DNA of 64,000 bases. Origin: Alistipes shahii (GTDB lineage Bacteria; Bacillota_I; Bacilli_A; RFN20; CAG-826). This document shows, in pieces, positions 3,102-48,933 of the stretch (within the stretch, counting starts at the first letter, position 1; each line of letters starts with the position of its first letter). The stretch covers positions 78,216 through 142,215 of the forward strand of contig CAVBUY010000002.1 of assembly GCA_963598795.1 (NCBI GenBank), read 5' to 3'. The notes under the pieces were generated by a model. The model searched no databases, was not told the DNA's origin, and worked only from the letters and a program-made list of their open reading frames with translations. Position numbers and translations under genes: made by a program.

Positions 3102-3145
3102 AGAAAAAAGGCACGAACCTATTGAAAGAAAATTTGGTTCATGCC
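3102..3145 (-). terminator. Intrinsic terminator after the secreted-protein gene
   Basis: The minus strand reads AGGCATGAACC-(16-nt loop)-GGTTCGTGCCT followed by TTTTTT. It lies 24 nt after the stop of 3169..3813. Confidence 0.7.
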
Positions 3146-3168
3146 TTAGTTGGGAAGTTGTTAATTAC

Positions 3169-3813
3169 TTAGTTAACACGAGCGAAAAGCTGAATTGAAA
3201 CATAACATTCAGGATTTTTCTCAGTTACATTCCATTCGGTGTTTTTATTTGTATCGTCTAAACTAGTAAGAGTACCGTCGCCACAGAGTGCATTAATTAA
3301 ACTTATATAATCTGATTCTGCAGTGGTACCAGTCGGGCATTTTTCACTTACCCAAGCAAGATTTGGAAGGACTTCAAGAAGATTATCTCCATCAGTCCAT
3401 GTAAGTACATCGTCTTGAGTAAGTTCATAATAAACACTTCCATCACCAGCTTCCTTTGCTTTACTGGTATTCTCAAATGTCACATATTGCGCTAAAACTT
3501 TGCTAATAGCCACAGTGAAGTATTTAGTAACAGTTTTACTGCTTGTATCGACATCAGTAGGTTTGACATATGTTGCGCTAAAAACTTTAAATTCATCAGC
3601 AAGTTTATAAGATACTTTACCATTGTCTAAATAAACATAAACATTATTAGCGTTGTTGACGGTGATCGTTCCGGCGCTGGCGTAAGCGGCTACCTTTACG
3701 CCAACATTCGCACTAGCGGTGGCGGTCCCGGCATAGACCCAGGCCGCGGAGGCGGTTCCGACCAAGGCCAAGCAGGCGGCCGCGGTCAGCATTTTGATTT
3801 TGGATTTCTTCAT
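3169..3813 (-). CDS. Secreted protein of unknown function (signal peptide, no lipobox); possibly TasA/camelysin-like
   Basis: The 214-aa ORF starts MKKSKIKMLTAAACLALVGTASAAWVYAGTATASA, with AXA cleavage motifs. The mature part is rich in beta-strand-like sequence and ends ...YVSIQLFARVN. It has its own terminator and a long upstream non-coding region. Confidence 0.7.
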   Translation of the reverse strand: MKKSKIKMLTAAACLALVGTASAAWVYAGTATASANVGVKVAAYASAGTITVNNANNVYVYLDNGKVSYKLADEFKVFSATYVKPTDVDTSSKTVTKYFTVAISKVLAQYVTFENTSKAKEAGDGSVYYELTQDDVLTWTDGDNLLEVLPNLAWVSEKCPTGTTAESDYISLINALCGDGTLTSLDDTNKNTEWNVTEKNPECYVSIQLFARVN

Positions 3814-3984
3814 TTTCTTTTCCTTTTTCCCATTCGTTTTGTGGGAGGTTGGCGATAGTTCCCTTCATCAATCCTCTTTTATCTTTTCCATAAGCGATTT
3901 CGCGTTGCCATTATCACTATTGACAAGCCACCGCTCTTAAGATAAAAACGTTGATAAAGCCTAAACTTTCGCCTTACGTTTGAA

Positions 3985-4013
3985 ATTATAGGCCCCCCCC
4001 CTTCAAATTTCAA
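3985..4013 (-). promoter_or_regulatory. Sigma-70-type promoter, TTGAAA-N17-TATAAT, with a G9 tract inside the spacer
   Basis: The minus strand reads TTGAAA (4013..4008), then TTTGAAGGGGGGGGGCC (17 nt), then TATAAT (3990..3985). It points toward the 3169..3813 gene, about 170 nt upstream of its ATG. Confidence 0.55.
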
Positions 4014-5998: not shown

Positions 5999-7867
5999 TT
6001 ATTGCAAATTGATGGCTATTGAATGGATATAGACCGCTTTGGTGATGTTGGTTATTTCGAATTTCACCTTGCCAGCCTTGGGGGTAGATAGAGTTGTGGA
6101 TTTTACTTGAGCCACTCCAGCTTCGTATCCGAGTTTGGAGGTGTTGATCAATTCGTCACCCAGATACATTGCGCAATCATAAGAGGTGCCAGACCCAGCT
6201 GAACCTTTCAAATACATTGATTCCACCAAAGTTTTCTCGGAAACGACAATTTCTTCTTTGCTAGTTATCGTTAAAGTTCCAACCGGTATGGTGGAGGTTC
6301 CGAACGCAACTCCGAAGGTTTTGTTCATACTGCCGATTTTCCCTGCCGCGAAATTGATAATCCAAGTGACTCCACCTAATGTCAGTTCGTTGTCGACGCC
6401 CGGTTTTTCTTTGATTTCGCTCAAATCATTGCCCGCGGCGCTGCCGGTGAAGGTGTAGCTATAGGTGCTATAAACGAACGGATCCATGTCTTTCACTTCG
6501 AACGAATAGCTCAAAGCGTTGTTTTCGGTTTTGATCGTGACCTTTTTTTGTCCGACGGAAGTGAGGCTTTCCCCGTCCGAAACGCCTTCCAAAGTCCAAT
6601 TCGTGTCATTGCCGATTGATAAGTCAGCCCCATATTTTCCAACGACGACATCGTCTTTGGAGAAAACCGAACCAACCTCATAGACGCGTTTTGCTGAAAC
6701 GATGGTCCTTATATCTTCTTTCGGACTGGCGATATTCAAAGCTTCATAAGAAGAGGAAACCAAGCTGAGATTGCCGGGTTTGTCTTTCTTGGAACCGAAA
6801 GCGTATTCGACCAATCCAGGGAAATCGACATAGGGGTTTCTGTTTCCTTGGGCATTGTTCTTGGTTTCGTCACTATGGGTTTTGGGAACGTAAGAATAGA
6901 CTGATTCGTTATGTTGATATTCTCCTAAGTCCACCATAACGGAAGAAGACCAGGAAACCAAATCGCTAAGATTGCCTATCGCGTAAGCATTATAGGTGGC
7001 TTCGTCATAATCCACGTAATCTTCTTGGACTTTCAAGCCAGGATAGAGAACCGTCCCGTCTTCGTTCAATTCGTCTTTGCTATACATGGTAGCCATATAG
7101 AAAATGGCTCTGGATAATCTTCCTTTGTCTTTTTCTGCCGGCTCAAAGTTCTTGCTGTCGTATCTATATCCACCAGAGGAATAGCCCATGTCTTTGAATG
7201 TCGAATCGCTTTGGTTGGCGTTTCCATAGTTTTTGTTTCCCCTGGAAGTGTTGCCAGAGCTAGAAGAAGCGAAAATATTATGGAAATCCGTGGCCCTTCC
7301 TAACGTTTTTACCGCGTTCGTGGTGCTTTTGTTGGTCATTAGGCTAGCTGGCCAAGCGTGTTCTCTTTGCCAAGAAGTGTTGGTCAATGTTGGATCGATG
7401 TTGTCCATGGAATACACGGCGTCCAATCTTTCTCTGTCGTATATGTCTTTGTCAGCCTCTTGGTTGCTCATCCAATTGGTATGGGTTCCGGCATATTCGA
7501 TTGGCTTATATGTCCCGGACGAAATGATGGAATGAAGTTTGTTAATAAGATCTTCTCCGTTGTTCCATGAGGTCAAGGAAAGATAATAGTTATCGTATAG
7601 ATGACATTCGTAATCTTCTATCGAAGCGGAAGATGAGCTCGACGAGGAGTCAGAAGATGAGCTCGAGGACGAGCTCGAGGACGAACTAGACGGAGAACTC
7701 GAAGACGAGGCAGAAGATGAACTTGAAGAATGACTAGATGACGAGTCCGAAGACGCATTGTCGCTAGAAGATACAGACGGTTCCGGAGTGTTGTCACACG
7801 CCCCGAGAAGCAATGACGCGCTCAAAGATAATAATAAAAATATATGTTTTGTTTTCATGAACTCCAT
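5999..7867 (-). CDS. Endonuclease I-family extracellular nuclease lipoprotein with a C-terminal accessory domain
   Basis: The 622-aa ORF has lipobox LLLGAC and a ~45-residue poly-Ser linker. Its nuclease motifs are QREHAWPAS, SRGNKNYG and NRNPYVDFP. About 180 further residues follow the nuclease domain. Confidence 0.8.
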   Translation of the reverse strand: MEFMKTKHIFLLLSLSASLLLGACDNTPEPSVSSSDNASSDSSSSHSSSSSSASSSSSPSSSSSSSSSSSSSDSSSSSSSASIEDYECHLYDNYYLSLTSWNNGEDLINKLHSIISSGTYKPIEYAGTHTNWMSNQEADKDIYDRERLDAVYSMDNIDPTLTNTSWQREHAWPASLMTNKSTTNAVKTLGRATDFHNIFASSSSGNTSRGNKNYGNANQSDSTFKDMGYSSGGYRYDSKNFEPAEKDKGRLSRAIFYMATMYSKDELNEDGTVLYPGLKVQEDYVDYDEATYNAYAIGNLSDLVSWSSSVMVDLGEYQHNESVYSYVPKTHSDETKNNAQGNRNPYVDFPGLVEYAFGSKKDKPGNLSLVSSSYEALNIASPKEDIRTIVSAKRVYEVGSVFSKDDVVVGKYGADLSIGNDTNWTLEGVSDGESLTSVGQKKVTIKTENNALSYSFEVKDMDPFVYSTYSYTFTGSAAGNDLSEIKEKPGVDNELTLGGVTWIINFAAGKIGSMNKTFGVAFGTSTIPVGTLTITSKEEIVVSEKTLVESMYLKGSAGSGTSYDCAMYLGDELINTSKLGYEAGVAQVKSTTLSTPKAGKVKFEITNITKAVYIHSIAINLQ

Positions 7868-35327: not shown

Positions 35328-38300
35328 TTATTGCTTAGTGATGGTTGCATTTTTAAATTCAGAATAATCGTACATAAACATGTCGTCGGTTTCCGTGGAT
35401 TCAATGGTCACAGTCATCGCGTCAAAGTCGATAGTAACAGTGGCTTCAATGCTTCCGCCGGCACAACTATCCTCCAATTGTCCTTCATACACATAAGCGT
35501 TGCCACTAGAACTCTTTTTGGTAATTGTACCTTCCAATGTTCCTGATCCATAAGAATCAATGGCATATACTTCGCAAGTGTTTCCCGAATCGGAAATAGT
35601 GATTTCCAATTCGCTTCCATACCCGGTCGTATCAGAGGCTACATAGGTTCCATCGAAAGAAGATGTTGCTTCGGTGATGGTCAACGTTGCTTGGCCAACG
35701 ATTCCAGAACCATCTGATGCAGTGGCGATGATATCAACCGTGCCAGTGGCCAAAGTGGTCACGACGCCTTTGCTATTGACGGTCGCTATTTCTTCATTGG
35801 AAGTGGACCAGGTGACGGCTTTGTTGTCAGCGTTATCTGGGGCAACTACCGCAGTCGCGGTAACGCTGCTTCCCTTAGTGACGGAAGTAGCGCTTAAGGT
35901 AACGGTGATACCGGTAACCTTCTGAGGTTCGGCTACGGTGATATCGACGGTGCTCTTTAGGCCGAATTCGGAAGTGAGGGTCAAAGTGGCAGTGCCAGCA
36001 GCGACACCGATGGCGGAAACAACACCATTATCGTTGGAAATGGAAACGATATCTTCGTTGGAAGAAGTAACAGACCAAGTCTCGTTATAGCAATTCTTGG
36101 GTCCGAAGTCAGCGGACAAAGTGGTCTTAGCGCCGACCTTTATCTCGGTCTTGCTAGCCTTCAAAGTAACGCTCTCGGCTTTCTTGGCGAGAGTGGAGCT
36201 TTGAGTATAGATATTGGCCTTATGCTCATTGTCTCCTACTTTGATGTTGTAGATGTATTCAACTTTGTTAGTTTCAGAAGAAGAAACCTTGGCTAAGAAA
36301 TAGCCAGCAGTGACCTTGTCGGCATATTCACCGAAGACGGCATAGCCATCATCGTTGATATCGGCAAAAGCGAGTTCGGTTTCATCGCCATTAGCGAATT
36401 TGATCTTAACTTTTTCACCGTCAATCACAAAACTGTTGGCGGTCGGATAGTCATCTTCAAGCCAAGTGCCTTTTAAGCCATCGGCAACAGCGGCAGCTTC
36501 TTTAACGGTGATGGTTATCTCGTTCGATTCTACAGGGGTAGCGGTCGCGCCATGATAAGAAGAAGCTTTGACTTTTACGGTGCCTACGGCAACCGGGGTG
36601 AGAATACCATCGGAAGAGATGGTGGCGACATTGGTGTCGGAAACGCTCCAAACCACTGCTTTGGAAGTAGCGTTGCTAGGCAAGATACCAGCGGAGAAGC
36701 TCAAAGTCTTGCCGAGTCTCACGGAAGTGGCGCCGCTATTTTCTGAAATGGTTACGGAAGTAACCGGAGTGGCATCGGCGACGAAGTGGTCGTTGCAGCT
36801 ATCGTTGGCGGCAAAGACCAATTTGTCCATGCTCATTTCCATGCTATCTCCGATCATCGAGCCACGCATGACGATTCTGACTTGGCTAGCGGGGGCAAAG
36901 GTTTTCTGAATGAGGTGCAAGTTATCGCTCGAGATGTTTTCTTTAACTTCGTCGGTGATATCGATGACTTCGGCTTCGGCCCAAGTCTGAGATGGGTTTT
37001 TGGCTTCGATGGCGACCTTGCTGACATACTCAGGTTTGAAAGAATTGCCATAGACCGAGCCATAGTGGAAACCGATGCCGGAGACTTGCTGGTCGTCGAA
37101 ATCGAAGAGAGAGACGGCGTCAGAGGAAGTGCTCTCTCCATCGAAGGTCTCGTTCAAAGTATCTTGGACGCCGGTCTTCATGACCAAGGTCTTCTTGCCA
37201 CCAAAGATAGCGCTTCTGGATGGAGCGGTGACGACGTTGACGCCCTTATTGACTTTGATGGAGAATGGGAGCGAGGAATTGAGCGAATTGGAAGCGAACG
37301 GATCGGCGCCCAATTCGGAATTCGCGTCGAAGGTGATGTCATAGACGGCGTCGGTCATATCGATGTCGGCTAGACCGTTGACGTGGATCTTGATTTCGTT
37401 CGATTTGGCGGCAAGACCGGTTTCTGGGTTGGTTTTACCTTGGATATAGACGGTGCAGTCGCCGGCAGCGACAGCCATGATAACGCGATTATAGTCCTTG
37501 TCTAAACCGACGGTCGCGACCTTTTCGTCGCTGGAAACGTAGGTAAGTTCGCTTTCTTTTATCCATCGTGCTTCTTCAACGCCTTCCGGAGCGTCATAAG
37601 TGACGGTATAGGTGTATTTGAGACCCTTCTCGATCTCTAAGACATAGGTGTCACCGTCCTTGGTGGCGGAAGCATCAGGAACTATTTCGATGGTCTTTGG
37701 ATAGACGTGGACCTGCGGGCCGGACCATCCTTTGTATTGCCAATATTCTTTAACCGTGTCGGCATTTGGCGCATCGGGCAAGGTGGCACCGCTTGGAACT
37801 ACGGTCGTCGCGAAATTAGTTAATTTGATTTCGAGCAAGTCCTCTTCGGCATCCTCGCCGAAGGCTTTTATGACGGAGATATAACCATTGGAATCGAGTT
37901 GGATGTAGAAATCGAGGATTTCGGTATCGTAGAAAGATTCAAAGACAGTATTTACCGTATCGTCGAACTTGGCGGTGTTAGAGAAAACATAGTAGCCGCT
38001 CACGTAAGTAAAGTCGGCCGGGACGACGTTTTTAAGGAAGACATCAAATGACCAATAGAAATGTGAAAGGGTACAGCTGACGCCATCATAAACAGAATTC
38101 AGCCAAGCTGGACCACCTGGTTCGGTAGCGTCGTCGAAATAACGATAGTTCTTTCCCTCATAGTCATGATAGTAATCCCATAAACCTTCGTCACCGGAGA
38201 TATCGTAAATGATATCGAAGCCATTGACGTGGTAATCATACCAAGCCAACTCAGATTCGCCAAAGGAACCTTGGCTGCCGATGTTGCCTATTGTGGCGGT

Positions 38301-38513
38301 GTAGTTCGAATAATTCTTTTGGAAGGCTCTTTGCAAAGCGGAAGAATGATCTACCGGGGTGCTGCTGCTATCGCTGCTCGGCTCAGCAGAAGAGGAAGAG
38401 CCGGAATCGATAGGGGGGGTGTCGGAGGAGCTGGAATCTTTGCCGTTGTCGCAACCGGCAAGAGCAGCAATGGACCCGCACAAGAAGATTAGGGCCAGTT
38501 TGTTTGCTTTCAT
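35328..38513 (-). CDS. Giant surface lipoprotein with multiple bacterial Ig-like (Big_2) domains
   Basis: The 1061-aa ORF has lipobox IAALAGC and a Ser/Pro linker. At least four Big_2-like repeats are visible, for example VTSVTISENSGATSVRLGKTLSFSAGILPSNATSKAVVWSVSDTNVATISSDGILTPVAVGTVKVKASS. The N-terminal ~250 aa are unassigned. Confidence 0.8.
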   Translation of the reverse strand: MKANKLALIFLCGSIAALAGCDNGKDSSSSDTPPIDSGSSSSAEPSSDSSSTPVDHSSALQRAFQKNYSNYTATIGNIGSQGSFGESELAWYDYHVNGFDIIYDISGDEGLWDYYHDYEGKNYRYFDDATEPGGPAWLNSVYDGVSCTLSHFYWSFDVFLKNVVPADFTYVSGYYVFSNTAKFDDTVNTVFESFYDTEILDFYIQLDSNGYISVIKAFGEDAEEDLLEIKLTNFATTVVPSGATLPDAPNADTVKEYWQYKGWSGPQVHVYPKTIEIVPDASATKDGDTYVLEIEKGLKYTYTVTYDAPEGVEEARWIKESELTYVSSDEKVATVGLDKDYNRVIMAVAAGDCTVYIQGKTNPETGLAAKSNEIKIHVNGLADIDMTDAVYDITFDANSELGADPFASNSLNSSLPFSIKVNKGVNVVTAPSRSAIFGGKKTLVMKTGVQDTLNETFDGESTSSDAVSLFDFDDQQVSGIGFHYGSVYGNSFKPEYVSKVAIEAKNPSQTWAEAEVIDITDEVKENISSDNLHLIQKTFAPASQVRIVMRGSMIGDSMEMSMDKLVFAANDSCNDHFVADATPVTSVTISENSGATSVRLGKTLSFSAGILPSNATSKAVVWSVSDTNVATISSDGILTPVAVGTVKVKASSYHGATATPVESNEITITVKEAAAVADGLKGTWLEDDYPTANSFVIDGEKVKIKFANGDETELAFADINDDGYAVFGEYADKVTAGYFLAKVSSSETNKVEYIYNIKVGDNEHKANIYTQSSTLAKKAESVTLKASKTEIKVGAKTTLSADFGPKNCYNETWSVTSSNEDIVSISNDNGVVSAIGVAAGTATLTLTSEFGLKSTVDITVAEPQKVTGITVTLSATSVTKGSSVTATAVVAPDNADNKAVTWSTSNEEIATVNSKGVVTTLATGTVDIIATASDGSGIVGQATLTITEATSSFDGTYVASDTTGYGSELEITISDSGNTCEVYAIDSYGSGTLEGTITKKSSSGNAYVYEGQLEDSCAGGSIEATVTIDFDAMTVTIESTETDDMFMYDYSEFKNATITKQ

Positions 38514-47397: not shown

Positions 47398-48933
47398 TTA
47401 TCTATAGCTTCCCCATATTTTATCAACGGCTTCTGGGTGGTCTATAAACGGGTTTCTGTTGTTTTGTATCTTATAAACCGCTTCGTTTCTCTTTATCTCT
47501 TTTTCGGAAACAGGGTCCATATCATTCCAAGCCAAATAAGTCTTTATGGCCCATGAAGCAAGAGATGGATAGGTAGTCTTGTTAAATGCAGCGTAATTGA
47601 CGGAAGGGATATAGCTTTGATATCTGGTCACGAAATAGAAATAGGAACGAGCGAAGTCTCCCTTATATTCGTCGATGACTTCAAAAACCGTCCCACTATA
47701 GCCATTGTTGCTGCCGGTTCCTAATTTGGAGCCGTTTTTAGATGTATATTCGGCAGAAGAGACATTGCCATGAGGGAAAGAGCTTCTTCTGTTATTGACG
47801 TATCCGTCCGTCGGAACGACATGGAAGAGATCGCATTTCATCGAGGATGCCCCACTGGTGCTTTTCCATGAAGATTGGGGAATGGTATGCTCCCTGTTAT
47901 AGACGTCTCCCTCGTCTTTGTAGTTGCCGGCCCTATCGTTTCTGGGATTGAATTTTTCATTCGAATACATATCCCAAATATAACCTTCATCGGTTAAATC
48001 GGTTGATTCGTAAGCAGACCATAAGGCATCGTAGCCAATGGCCTTCGCGCCTTTTGATATAACGGAAGACAAGGCCGTCTTTAAGGTAGCTCCGGTAGAA
48101 TTCCAATTGACTCCAGCGTAATATCCGCTCGGATCGATGTCTGGCGTGCTATCGGAACTCGAAGACGAAGATGACGATGAAGAAGAGGAATCAGCAGAAG
48201 AGGACGACGACGACGATGACGAGGAATCGGGGTCCGTCGAACCGCCTGAATTCAAAACCAAGAAATCTATTTTATAAACATAGATGCGTCCCTTGGCTGA
48301 AGCGGAAAAAGTCATAGAATCAGAAGCCGTGTTGGTTTCGTTGTCCATATATAAATAGGTATATTTGGAAACTGAGTCGCTATCGATTGTTATTTCCATT
48401 CCGTTGGTATTAGCGCTTGTTTGACATTTGTAATTGACGGAGGAATCTCCCTCGAATTTCGAAGCATATATCTCAACTTGCTTGATTATGTATTTTTTAT
48501 TGAAATTAATCGTGAAATTGCCATTTTTCTTGCTGGATCCCATCTTCAACGCATAGGATTCCTCATTAGTGGATTCGCGTTTTTGGCCAAAGCAATTGTT
48601 GAAAGTCGCGCCTTTTACGTCGATTCCGTCCGCAAAATAGCTTTCCGAGCTTGGTGTTTCGGAATTGGTTTTGGATACCAGCTCCCCAAAATACAATGTG
48701 TATCTCTTTATTGTTTCTTCAGGATTCGACGAAGAAGATGAAGATGACGATGAAGAAGAGGAAGAGGAGCTGGATGAGCTACTAGAAGAGGACTGCCCAC
48801 CAGAGGAAGACGAAGAATTTATATTAGTGGAATCCGAATCGTTCGATGAAGAGGAATCTGGATTGTCTATACACGAAGACAACGACAAAATGGCCGTGAT
48901 GGCCAACATTGATATAAAGGGGATCTTTTTCAT
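47398..48933 (-). CDS. Endonuclease I-family extracellular nuclease lipoprotein with an N-terminal accessory domain
   Basis: The 511-aa ORF has lipobox LSLSSC and two poly-Ser linkers. A ~150-aa module precedes the nuclease domain. The nuclease motifs are NREHTIPQSSW, VNNRRSSFPHG and NNRNPFIDHPEAVDKIW. Confidence 0.8.
   Translation of the reverse strand: MKKIPFISMLAITAILSLSSCIDNPDSSSSNDSDSTNINSSSSSGGQSSSSSSSSSSSSSSSSSSSSSSNPEETIKRYTLYFGELVSKTNSETPSSESYFADGIDVKGATFNNCFGQKRESTNEESYALKMGSSKKNGNFTINFNKKYIIKQVEIYASKFEGDSSVNYKCQTSANTNGMEITIDSDSVSKYTYLYMDNETNTASDSMTFSASAKGRIYVYKIDFLVLNSGGSTDPDSSSSSSSSSSADSSSSSSSSSSSSDSTPDIDPSGYYAGVNWNSTGATLKTALSSVISKGAKAIGYDALWSAYESTDLTDEGYIWDMYSNEKFNPRNDRAGNYKDEGDVYNREHTIPQSSWKSTSGASSMKCDLFHVVPTDGYVNNRRSSFPHGNVSSAEYTSKNGSKLGTGSNNGYSGTVFEVIDEYKGDFARSYFYFVTRYQSYIPSVNYAAFNKTTYPSLASWAIKTYLAWNDMDPVSEKEIKRNEAVYKIQNNRNPFIDHPEAVDKIWGSYR

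What the first reader, a model, noticed from the sequence alone, without database searches (positions are those of the whole stretch)
3985..4013. Near-consensus promoter whose 17-nt spacer is built around a G9 homopolymer: candidate phase-variation switch
The minus strand from 4013 to 3985 reads TTGAAA-TTTGAAGGGGGGGGGCC-TATAAT. That is a 5/6 match to the -35 consensus, a perfect -10, and a spacer of exactly 17 nt. Nine of the spacer bases are one G run (C9 on the plus strand, 3993..4001). This is the longest G/C homopolymer I saw in the window. It sits in a 435-bp non-coding stretch about 170 nt upstream of the secreted-protein gene 3169..3813. Length changes in a spacer homopolymer by slipped-strand mispairing are an established ON/OFF or volume switch. 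Known examples are Neisseria porA and opc (poly-G/C) and Mycoplasma hyorhinis vlp (poly-A). With G9 the spacing is optimal; G8 or G10 would give 16 or 18 nt.
Basis: partly seen in the sequence, partly recalled or inferred. Interest (0 to 1): 0.8.

Follow-up and report, generated by a model that had tools for sequence, protein, structure and literature searches.

The report
Poly-G promoter switch candidate, secreted-protein gene
A run of nine G's sits exactly between the two recognition boxes of the only promoter of a secreted-protein gene. Relatives carry other slippery repeats at the same spot, so this is very probably a known kind of stochastic expression switch, here in an uncultured gut-type bacterium, but switching itself is not yet shown.

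Summary
The minus strand 4013..3985 reads TTGAAA-17 nt-TATAAT, and G9 (3993..4001) lies inside the spacer. It is the only G/C run of 8 or more in 64 kb (expected 0.07-0.11).

An 11/12 promoter match alone is at chance level. Conservation makes it credible:
- In homologous genes from other metagenome assemblies, similarity starts at the -35 box and runs through the 5'UTR and the first 150 coding bases.
- Identities are 87%, 82% and 91-94% for those three segments, against 57% on either side.

The gene belongs to a small, unannotated family of secreted proteins with an almost invariant N-terminus. In some loci the family gene sits next to a SipW-like signal peptidase.

Every family promoter I recovered has a simple repeat in the spacer: G9 (three times, spacers 17, 16, 16), A16, A8, A10G8, (TA)7 and (TA)5. 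Two low-coverage contigs end exactly at the G tract.

This supports a slipped-strand expression switch of the porA / tp0126 / vlp / Vmm kind. No length variation of the G tract itself was seen (G9 in 3 of 3), and raw reads could not be examined.

Verdict: a real feature, a new member of a known kind, partly supported. Confidence is about 0.6.

The parts
4008..4013 (-). -35 hexamer TTGAAA (5/6 match to TTGACA)
   Evidence: It is identical in L005b and L022, and conservation between homologues begins here.
3991..4007 (-). 17-nt spacer TTTGAAGGGGGGGGGCC
   Evidence: The homologous promoters L005b and L022 have TTTCAGGGGGGGGGAC, which is 16 nt.
3993..4001 (-). G9 homopolymer (C9 on the plus strand), the proposed slippage-prone element
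   Evidence: It is the only G/C run of 8 or more in the window, with 0.07-0.11 expected. G9 is also present in L005 (4544-4552) and L022 (441-449).
3985..3990 (-). -10 hexamer TATAAT (6/6)
   Evidence: It is identical in L005b, L022, L002 and L023.
3977..3979 (-). Predicted transcription start (inferred, 6-8 nt after the -10 box)
   Evidence: Inferred from promoter geometry only; not tested.
3851..3973 (-). Long hairpin at the 5' end of the leader (GGCGA...TCGCC), a possible mRNA stabiliser
   Evidence: The 176-nt leader (3980..3805) folds at -48.5 kcal/mol, z = -4.55, and 0 of 200 shuffles fold as well. The consensus fold is kept in 4 homologues with few compensatory changes. There is no Rfam match.
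3821..3826 (-). Shine-Dalgarno-like AAAGGA, 7 nt before the ATG
3169..3813 (-). Target gene: a 214-aa secreted protein of an unannotated family, with an almost invariant N-terminal 50 aa and a variable remainder
3102..3146 (-). Intrinsic terminator (12-bp stem, then a T run) that closes a one-gene transcription unit
   Evidence: sequence; fold, -17.9 kcal/mol.

Best explanation
This is a sigma-70-type promoter whose -35/-10 distance is set by a mutable G9 tract, and it is the only promoter of a monocistronic gene for a secreted protein.

Proposed mechanism (inferred, not shown): slipped-strand mispairing during replication adds or removes a G. The spacer then changes from the optimal 17 nt to 16 or 18 nt, and transcription drops. 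A clonal population would therefore always contain cells with high and low expression of this protein. That is a reversible 'volume' or ON/OFF control, as in N. meningitidis porA, T. pallidum tp0126, M. hyorhinis vlp (poly-A) and M. mycoides Vmm ((TA)n).

Shown here: the anatomy, the conservation of the promoter block, and the recurrence of simple repeats with differing lengths at this position across the gene family.

Inferred: the transcription start, the slippage rate and the effect on expression.
For: 1. Anatomy. TTGAAA-17-TATAAT with G9 wholly inside the spacer. It is the only promoter-like site upstream of the gene. A terminator follows directly after the stop codon.
2. G9 is a strong outlier. 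No other G/C run reaches 8 in 64 kb, and 0.07-0.11 are expected.
3. Conservation. Against L005b and L022 the upstream region is 57% identical, the core promoter 87%, the 5'UTR 82%, coding bases 1-150 91-94% and the rest of the gene 57-59%. Selection or gene conversion therefore keeps the block that starts at the -35 box.
4. Family-wide simple repeats at the same promoter position:
- window: G9, spacer 17
- L005b and L022: G9, spacer 16
- L021: TTG-A16-TAAC-TATAAT, spacer 17
- L008: homologous promoter with A8 only, spacer 9
- L024: TTGATT-TTC-A10-G8-CTTC-TATAAT, spacer 25
- L003: TTGACT-17-TATAAT containing (TA)7
- L007: orthologous promoter with (TA)5
In 128 kb of family loci, 8 of the 12 long simple repeats lie in these promoters.
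5. Two low-coverage SPAdes contigs from different samples begin with 'GACTATAAT' and 'CTATAAT'. That is exactly at the 3' edge of the tract.
6. The target fits the pattern. It is a variable secreted protein of a multigene family, found in some loci in an operon with a SipW-like signal peptidase.
7. Literature. Poly-G tracts of 8-9 are hypermutable, and nine is their modal length in C. jejuni (PMC3401435, abstract). The T. pallidum tprL tract is mostly G9 with 7-11 minorities, and the tp0126 poly-G between -35 and -10 works best at a 17-nt spacing (PMC7864442). A shared consensus of G9 therefore does not argue against switching.
Against: - The tract is G9 in all three assemblies that span it (window, L005b, L022), so no length polymorphism of this tract was observed.
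- The 16 versus 17 nt spacer difference comes from a non-tract indel (GAA versus CA).
- The breaks at the tract in low-coverage contigs can also be explained by Illumina errors at poly-G.
- The large differences in the low-GC homologues (A16 versus A8; A10G8 giving 25 nt) are many steps apart. They may be evolutionary decay rather than switching.
- An 11/12 promoter match is at chance level in this window.
- There is no evidence on the transcription start or on expression.
- The organism is unidentified, and it is unknown whether it has mismatch repair.
Confidence: 0.6

Rival explanations
1. It is a fixed, constitutive strong promoter. The G9 is a tolerated or relict spacer sequence kept by gene conversion together with the rest of the conserved 5' module. 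Slippage is too rare, or too weak in effect, to matter biologically.
For: G9 in 3 of 3 spanning assemblies. The whole 5' block, including synonymous sites of the first 150 coding bases, is 91-94% identical. That points to homogenisation rather than selection on the tract itself. Spacers of 16 and 17 nt are both compatible with activity.
Against: Long G/C runs are otherwise strongly avoided in this genome: none of length 6 and one of length 7 in 64 kb. Unrelated repeat types (A16, A10G8, (TA)7) occupy the same spacer in diverged homologues, which mere hitch-hiking does not explain. A modal G9 is what hypermutable tracts show elsewhere (PMC3401435, PMC7864442).
Confidence: 0.25
2. The tract acts mainly as a structural element or protein-binding element of the promoter, for example a rigid G:C block that affects melting or a regulator site. 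Regulation would then be by a factor, with length playing at most a secondary role (opc-like or tprL-like rather than porA-like).
For: In N. meningitidis opc and T. pallidum tprL, poly-C and poly-G tracts act without simply changing the -35/-10 spacing (PMC7864442, discussion). L024 has A10G8 with a 25-nt distance, which cannot work by simple spacing.
Against: In the window, L005b, L022, L021 and L003 the repeat lies strictly between good hexamers at 16-17 nt. The base composition of the repeat is not conserved across the family (G, A, TA), which argues against a sequence-specific binding site. No regulator gene lies next to the gene.
Confidence: 0.1
3. The tract is a sequencing or assembly artefact (a poly-G artefact of two-colour chemistry, or a misassembly).
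For: Poly-G is a known Illumina artefact, and two related contigs end at the tract.
Against: The tract is internal, with unique conserved flanks on both sides. It recurs as G9 in two further independent assemblies from different samples and next to different genes.
Confidence: 0.02

Closest known systems
Neisseria meningitidis porA promoter (poly-G between -35 and -10) and Treponema pallidum tp0126 (poly-G between -35 and -10, best at 17 nt)
   Same: Same anatomy: a poly-G of about 9-11 inside the spacer of a sigma-70 promoter of a surface or secreted protein gene, with 17 nt as the optimal distance (described in PMC7864442; window anatomy).
   Different: The host here is a Shine-Dalgarno-using, gut-type uncultured bacterium, and the target family is unrelated and unannotated. 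No length variation or expression data exist here.
Mycoplasma hyorhinis vlp genes (poly-A tract in the promoter spacer)
   Same: A multigene family in which each gene has its own promoter with a homopolymer in the spacer (PMC10502178). In vlp, from my own knowledge of Citti & Wise 1995, the 5' block of promoter, leader and signal peptide is highly conserved and the remainder is variable. The window shows that same modular pattern. The low-GC homologue L021 actually uses poly-A (A16).
   Different: The tract is poly-G in this lineage. The protein has no clear lipoprotein signal and no C-terminal tandem repeats. Only one copy lies in this window.
Mycoplasma mycoides Vmm and Haemophilus influenzae hifA/hifB ((TA)n in the promoter spacer)
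   Same: The homologues L003 and L007 carry (TA)7 and (TA)5 between -35 and -10, partly forming the -10 box. Vmm is switched by dinucleotide insertions or deletions in the promoter spacer (PMC2628566, PMC10502178).
   Different: This applies to relatives, not to the window's own promoter. The hif example rests on my own knowledge (van Ham et al. 1993).
Bacillus subtilis tapA-sipW-tasA (SipW-dependent secreted fibre protein)
   Same: In L005, L006 and L008 the family gene sits between a small paralogue and a SipW-like signal peptidase. The N-terminal motif ...LALVGTASAAWVYAG resembles SipW-type signal peptides (my own knowledge).
   Different: The predicted fold does not match TasA or anything else in the PDB (TasA fibre 8aur_A, E = 4). 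The SipW hits are below NCBIfam cut-offs. There is no peptidase gene in the window. tasA is not known to be phase-variable through a simple repeat.

Membership tests
Promoters made phase-variable by a simple repeat in the spacer (porA / tp0126 / vlp / Vmm class) | The simple repeat lies between the -35 and -10 hexamers of the gene's promoter | tested here: met
   TTGAAA-TTTGAA G9 CC-TATAAT. The hexamers are conserved in homologues and the conserved block starts at the -35 box.
Promoters made phase-variable by a simple repeat in the spacer (porA / tp0126 / vlp / Vmm class) | The tract is long enough to be hypermutable (poly-G/C of about 7-8 or more) | tested here: met
   G9. G8 and G9 tracts switch at high rates, and nine is the modal length in C. 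jejuni (PMC3401435, abstract).
Promoters made phase-variable by a simple repeat in the spacer (porA / tp0126 / vlp / Vmm class) | The repeat number varies within and between populations | tested here: inconclusive
   G9 in 3 of 3 spanning assemblies. Spacers are 17 versus 16 nt through a non-tract indel. Homologues differ widely: A16, A8, A10G8, (TA)7 and (TA)5. Two contigs break at the tract.
Promoters made phase-variable by a simple repeat in the spacer (porA / tp0126 / vlp / Vmm class) | Transcription starts downstream of this -10 box, and its level depends on tract length | not testable with these tools
   Needs 5' RACE or dRNA-seq and reporter fusions with G8, G9 and G10.
Promoters made phase-variable by a simple repeat in the spacer (porA / tp0126 / vlp / Vmm class) | The controlled gene encodes a surface-exposed or secreted product | tested here: met
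   There is an N-terminal basic plus hydrophobic signal-like segment, the remainder is variable, and a SipW-like peptidase lies in related operons. Export itself is inferred.
vlp-type variable surface protein gene family (Mycoplasma hyorhinis) | A conserved 5' module (promoter, leader, signal peptide) joined to a variable body | tested here: met
   Segment identities are 87%, 82% and 91-94% for the module against 57-59% for the flanks and the gene body.
vlp-type variable surface protein gene family (Mycoplasma hyorhinis) | A lipoprotein signal peptide and in-frame tandem repeats in the C-terminal region | tested here: not met
   There are no tandem repeats in the protein and no repeat families in the gene. 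Cys14 is invariant but is preceded by only about 6 hydrophobic residues and an A-A-A motif, which is not a typical lipobox. There is no sequence homology to any annotated family.
TasA / SipW-dependent secreted proteins | A cognate SipW-type signal peptidase gene next to the gene | tested here: inconclusive
   Present in L005, L006 and L008. The best NCBIfam hit is SipW (E = 2.8e-15 and 2.9e-5), but below the curated cut-off. Absent from the window.
TasA / SipW-dependent secreted proteins | A TasA/camelysin fold or sequence homology | tested here: not met
   The AlphaFold model has a mean pLDDT of 81.6, with most of the core above 90. No PDB match has E below 0.5, and the TasA fibre scores E = 4. 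There are no Pfam or NCBIfam hits.

The most novel reading that the evidence does not exclude
A whole, so far undescribed family of SipW-type secreted proteins (possibly fibre subunits) in uncultured, Shine-Dalgarno-using gut bacteria is run as a set of contingency loci. Each gene or operon would carry a simple repeat in its promoter spacer. The repeat motif would turn over with genome composition: poly-G at 40-43% GC; poly-A, A10G8 or (TA)n at 25-30% GC. A conserved 5' expression module (promoter, hairpin leader, signal peptide with GC3 of 0.74-0.82) would be recombined onto low-GC variable domains (GC3 of 0.22-0.31) that look imported from the low-GC relatives.
Probability: 0.35. Interest if true: 0.65.

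Novelty: new member of a known kind. Interest (0 to 1): 0.5.

Why it matters
Switches based on simple repeats are documented mainly in pathogens such as Neisseria, Haemophilus, Campylobacter, Treponema and Mycoplasma. A clear, family-wide case in uncultured gut-type commensals would have three consequences:
- It would show that the same bet-hedging strategy shapes surface structures in the microbiota.
- It would flag this unannotated protein family as an exposed, host- or phage-facing structure.
- It would warn that metagenome assemblies break at these sites or freeze one state of them.

The hypothesis can be tested directly from existing read sets.

Tried and rejected
- The exact-protein look-up of the 214-aa product found nothing.
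- The dxs look-up gave one Logan contig that stops about 110 nt short of the tract, so it is uninformative.
- Look-ups of two NCBI-sourced homologues were not on record.
- The GTDB genome scan returned only two low-GC contigs titled 'Phocaeicola dorei', apparently mis-binned, and not the source species.
- The JGI metagenome scan with the family profile found nothing.
- The scan with the conserved 19-mer of the leader found only unrelated marine chance matches.
- IMG/VR scans found nothing related.
- The plasmid and phage collections gave no match.
- Rfam found nothing in the leader.
- Pfam and NCBIfam found nothing for the protein.
- Foldseek against the PDB found no fold match.
- A riboswitch reading of the leader was considered and not supported: there is no Rfam hit and almost no covariation.
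- An invertible-promoter or shufflon reading was rejected: no inverted repeats flank the promoter and the window holds no second copy.
- The artefact reading was rejected because of independent assemblies.
- The organism could not be named.

Full report
**1. Observation**

The minus strand from 4013 to 3985 reads TTGAAA TTTGAAGGGGGGGGGCC TATAAT. The consensus scan scores it 11 of 12 with a 17-nt spacer. It is the only promoter-like site on that strand between the end of dxs (4249) and the ATG at 3813.

The G9 (C9 on the plus strand, 3993..4001) is the longest homopolymer of any base in the window:
- G/C runs: 32 of length 5, none of length 6, one of length 7, one of length 9.
- A/T runs stop at 7.
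- Expected number of G/C runs of 9 or more: 0.07 by extrapolating the decay, 0.11 under an independent-base model.

An 11/12 promoter match on its own is at chance level: 2 observed against 1.5 +/- 1.1 in shuffles. The case therefore rests on the conjunction of features and on conservation, not on the hexamers alone.

**2. The transcription unit**

- The promoter is followed by a leader of about 165 nt.
- The leader folds into one long hairpin (3973..3851). The 176-nt stretch folds at -48.5 kcal/mol, z = -4.55, and no shuffle of 200 folds as well.
- An AAAGGA Shine-Dalgarno-like motif lies 7 nt before the ATG at 3813.
- The gene is 214 codons long (3813..3169).
- A 12-bp-stem terminator follows (3146..3102).

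The unit sits between dxs and a glycosyltransferase / LPG-synthase-like pair. Rfam has no match in the leader.

About half of the long ORFs in the window have GGAGG-type ribosome-binding sites. The gene content is gut-like, with GH65, GH28 and Big_2 domains. The host is thus very probably a Shine-Dalgarno-using bacterium for which the TTGACA/TATAAT model is appropriate. I could not name the organism.

**3. The gene**

The product has no Pfam or NCBIfam match. It belongs to a small family:
- 61 clusters in the 5.8-billion-protein search.
- In the search of 1.84 billion representatives, 15 with E of 1e-30 or better and 73 with E of 1e-3 or better.

The first 50 or so residues (MKKSKIKMLTAAACLALVGTASAAWVYAGTATASANIGVKVA.YASAG) are nearly invariant, and the rest is variable. 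This also shows that the true start is 3813, not the Met8 used in the database.

AlphaFold gives a confident core with a mean pLDDT of 81.6; residues 1-41 are of low confidence. Nothing in the PDB matches it, and the best E-value is 0.5.

In L005, L006 and L008 the family gene lies in an operon between two other genes:
- A short paralogue, with an hhalign probability of 93.6%.
- A protein whose best NCBIfam hit is signal peptidase SipW (E = 2.8e-15 and 2.9e-5, below the curated cut-off).

The family is therefore plausibly a set of SipW-processed extracellular proteins. That statement is about how they may work. It is not a claim of membership in the TasA family.

**4. Comparative evidence on the promoter**

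Three further contigs from a 40-42% GC lineage carry the same 5' block. In L005b (sample ERZ15610580) and L022 (ERZ15610587) the promoter reads TTGAAA-TTTCA G9 AC-TATAAT. That is G9 again, with a 16-nt spacer.

Segment identities between the window and these two (alignment):

| Segment | Identity |
|---|---|
| Upstream of the -35 box | 57-58% |
| Core promoter | 87% |
| Leader (5'UTR) | 82% |
| Coding bases 1-150 | 91-94% |
| Rest of the gene | 57-59% |

The conserved block thus starts at the -35 box. This is the best available evidence that the promoter is real.

Two other contigs from different samples, both at about 2.5x coverage, begin with 'GACTATAAT' (L002) and 'CTATAAT' (L023). That is exactly at the 3' edge of the tract. 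It fits either length heterogeneity or poly-G sequencing trouble, and I cannot separate the two.

**5. Relatives at 25-30% GC**

The homologous promoters in the low-GC relatives carry other simple repeats at the same place:

| Locus | Promoter | Spacer |
|---|---|---|
| L021 | TTG-A16-TAAC-TATAAT | 17 nt |
| L008 | Homologous promoter, only A8, then TATACT | 9 nt |
| L024 | TTGATT-TTC-A10-G8-CTTC-TATAAT | 25 nt |
| L003 | TTGACT-17-TATAAT containing (TA)7 | 17 nt |
| L007 | Orthologue with (TA)5; an IS element replaces the -35 box | not defined |

Across 128 kb of family loci there are only 12 long simple repeats (A/T of 9 or more, G/C of 7 or more, dinucleotide of 5 or more units). Eight of them lie in these promoters.

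A repeat in the spacer is therefore a family trait, while its motif and length are fluid. That is what loci that evolve by slippage look like.

**6. What is missing**

- The G tract itself is G9 in all three assemblies that span it.
- The 16 versus 17 nt difference comes from a neighbouring indel.
- The literature softens the first point. Nine is the modal poly-G/C length of proven phase-variable genes in C. jejuni, and G8 and G9 tracts switch at high rates (PMC3401435, abstract). The T. pallidum tprL tract is mostly G9 within strains, with minorities of 7-11 (PMC7864442).
- Read-level heterogeneity, the transcription start and the dependence of expression on tract length remain untested.
The look-ups were exhausted, and the JGI metagenome, IMG/VR, plasmid and phage collections held nothing related.

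**7. Mechanism and comparison**

The best-supported reading is a porA / tp0126-type switch. Slippage changes the -35/-10 distance around the 17-nt optimum and so changes transcription of a secreted protein (mechanism as described in PMC7864442).

The family organisation works like M. hyorhinis vlp: a conserved promoter-leader-signal module with its own repeat on each gene or operon, joined to a variable body (poly-A in the promoter, PMC10502178). The (TA)n relatives work like Vmm (PMC2628566, PMC10502178).

It is not a member of those protein families. There is no homology, no clear lipobox and no C-terminal repeats.

Rival readings:
- A fixed promoter with a hitch-hiking tract (0.25).
- A structural or regulator-dependent role for the tract (0.1).
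- An artefact (0.02).

**8. Verdict**

The mechanism would be a new member of a known kind. My confidence in the switch is 0.6 and the interest score is 0.5.

Noticed in passing
window 3169..3813 (-); also L002, L005 4731-5381, L022 630-1295: There is a sharp codon-usage mosaic inside the gene. The first 150 nt have a GC3 of 0.74-0.82 and the rest 0.22-0.31, while other window genes have 0.43-0.55. The variable body resembles the 25-30% GC relatives (GC3 of 0.12-0.19). This suggests that imported or recombined variable domains sit on a conserved 5' module.
   Followed up: partly
window 3851..3973 (-): The leader forms a long, stable hairpin that starts within about 5 nt of the predicted 5' end. 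The 176-nt leader folds at -48.5 kcal/mol with z = -4.55. The hairpin is conserved in 4 homologues but shows almost no covariation, and there is no Rfam family. It may be an mRNA-stabilising 5' stem-loop.
   Followed up: partly
L005 744-3858, L006 680-2544, L008 4525-6869: In related genomes the family gene lies in an operon: small paralogue, family gene, SipW-like signal peptidase (best NCBIfam hit SipW, below the cut-off), and in L005 a 419-aa unknown protein. The window has no such peptidase.
   Followed up: partly
window 38413..38419: This is the second-longest G/C run (G7 on the plus strand, C7 on the coding strand). It lies in the Ser/Pro-rich linker just after the lipobox of a 1061-aa Big_2 lipoprotein (35328..38513). 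It is too short to call a switch and was not examined further.
   Followed up: no
window 5999..7867 and 47398..48933 (-): There are two Endonuclease I-domain proteins. The first has a lipoprotein-like signal and a long poly-Ser linker, which shows up as 12-nt periodic repeats at 7623-7755.
   Followed up: no
L003, L004 (GTDB records titled Phocaeicola dorei): These contigs have 27-30% GC and strong AGGAG ribosome-binding sites. They cannot be Phocaeicola, so the contigs or bins are mislabelled or contaminated.
   Followed up: partly
L003 2254-3381, L007 1717-3171, L021 2352-3287: Transposase genes lie directly upstream of family genes in three loci. In L007 the insertion replaces the -35 box of the (TA)n promoter. 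Fic and AAA_14/DUF4143 genes also recur nearby.
   Followed up: no
L023 500-665: The 3' part of this 665-nt contig is almost free of G, and the reading frame of the family gene ends abnormally. The contig is probably chimeric or artefactual.
   Followed up: no
window 3792..3813: The public protein collection calls this gene from Met8 (207 aa, P0001). The family alignment shows that MKKSKIKM is conserved, so the start is at 3813.
   Followed up: yes
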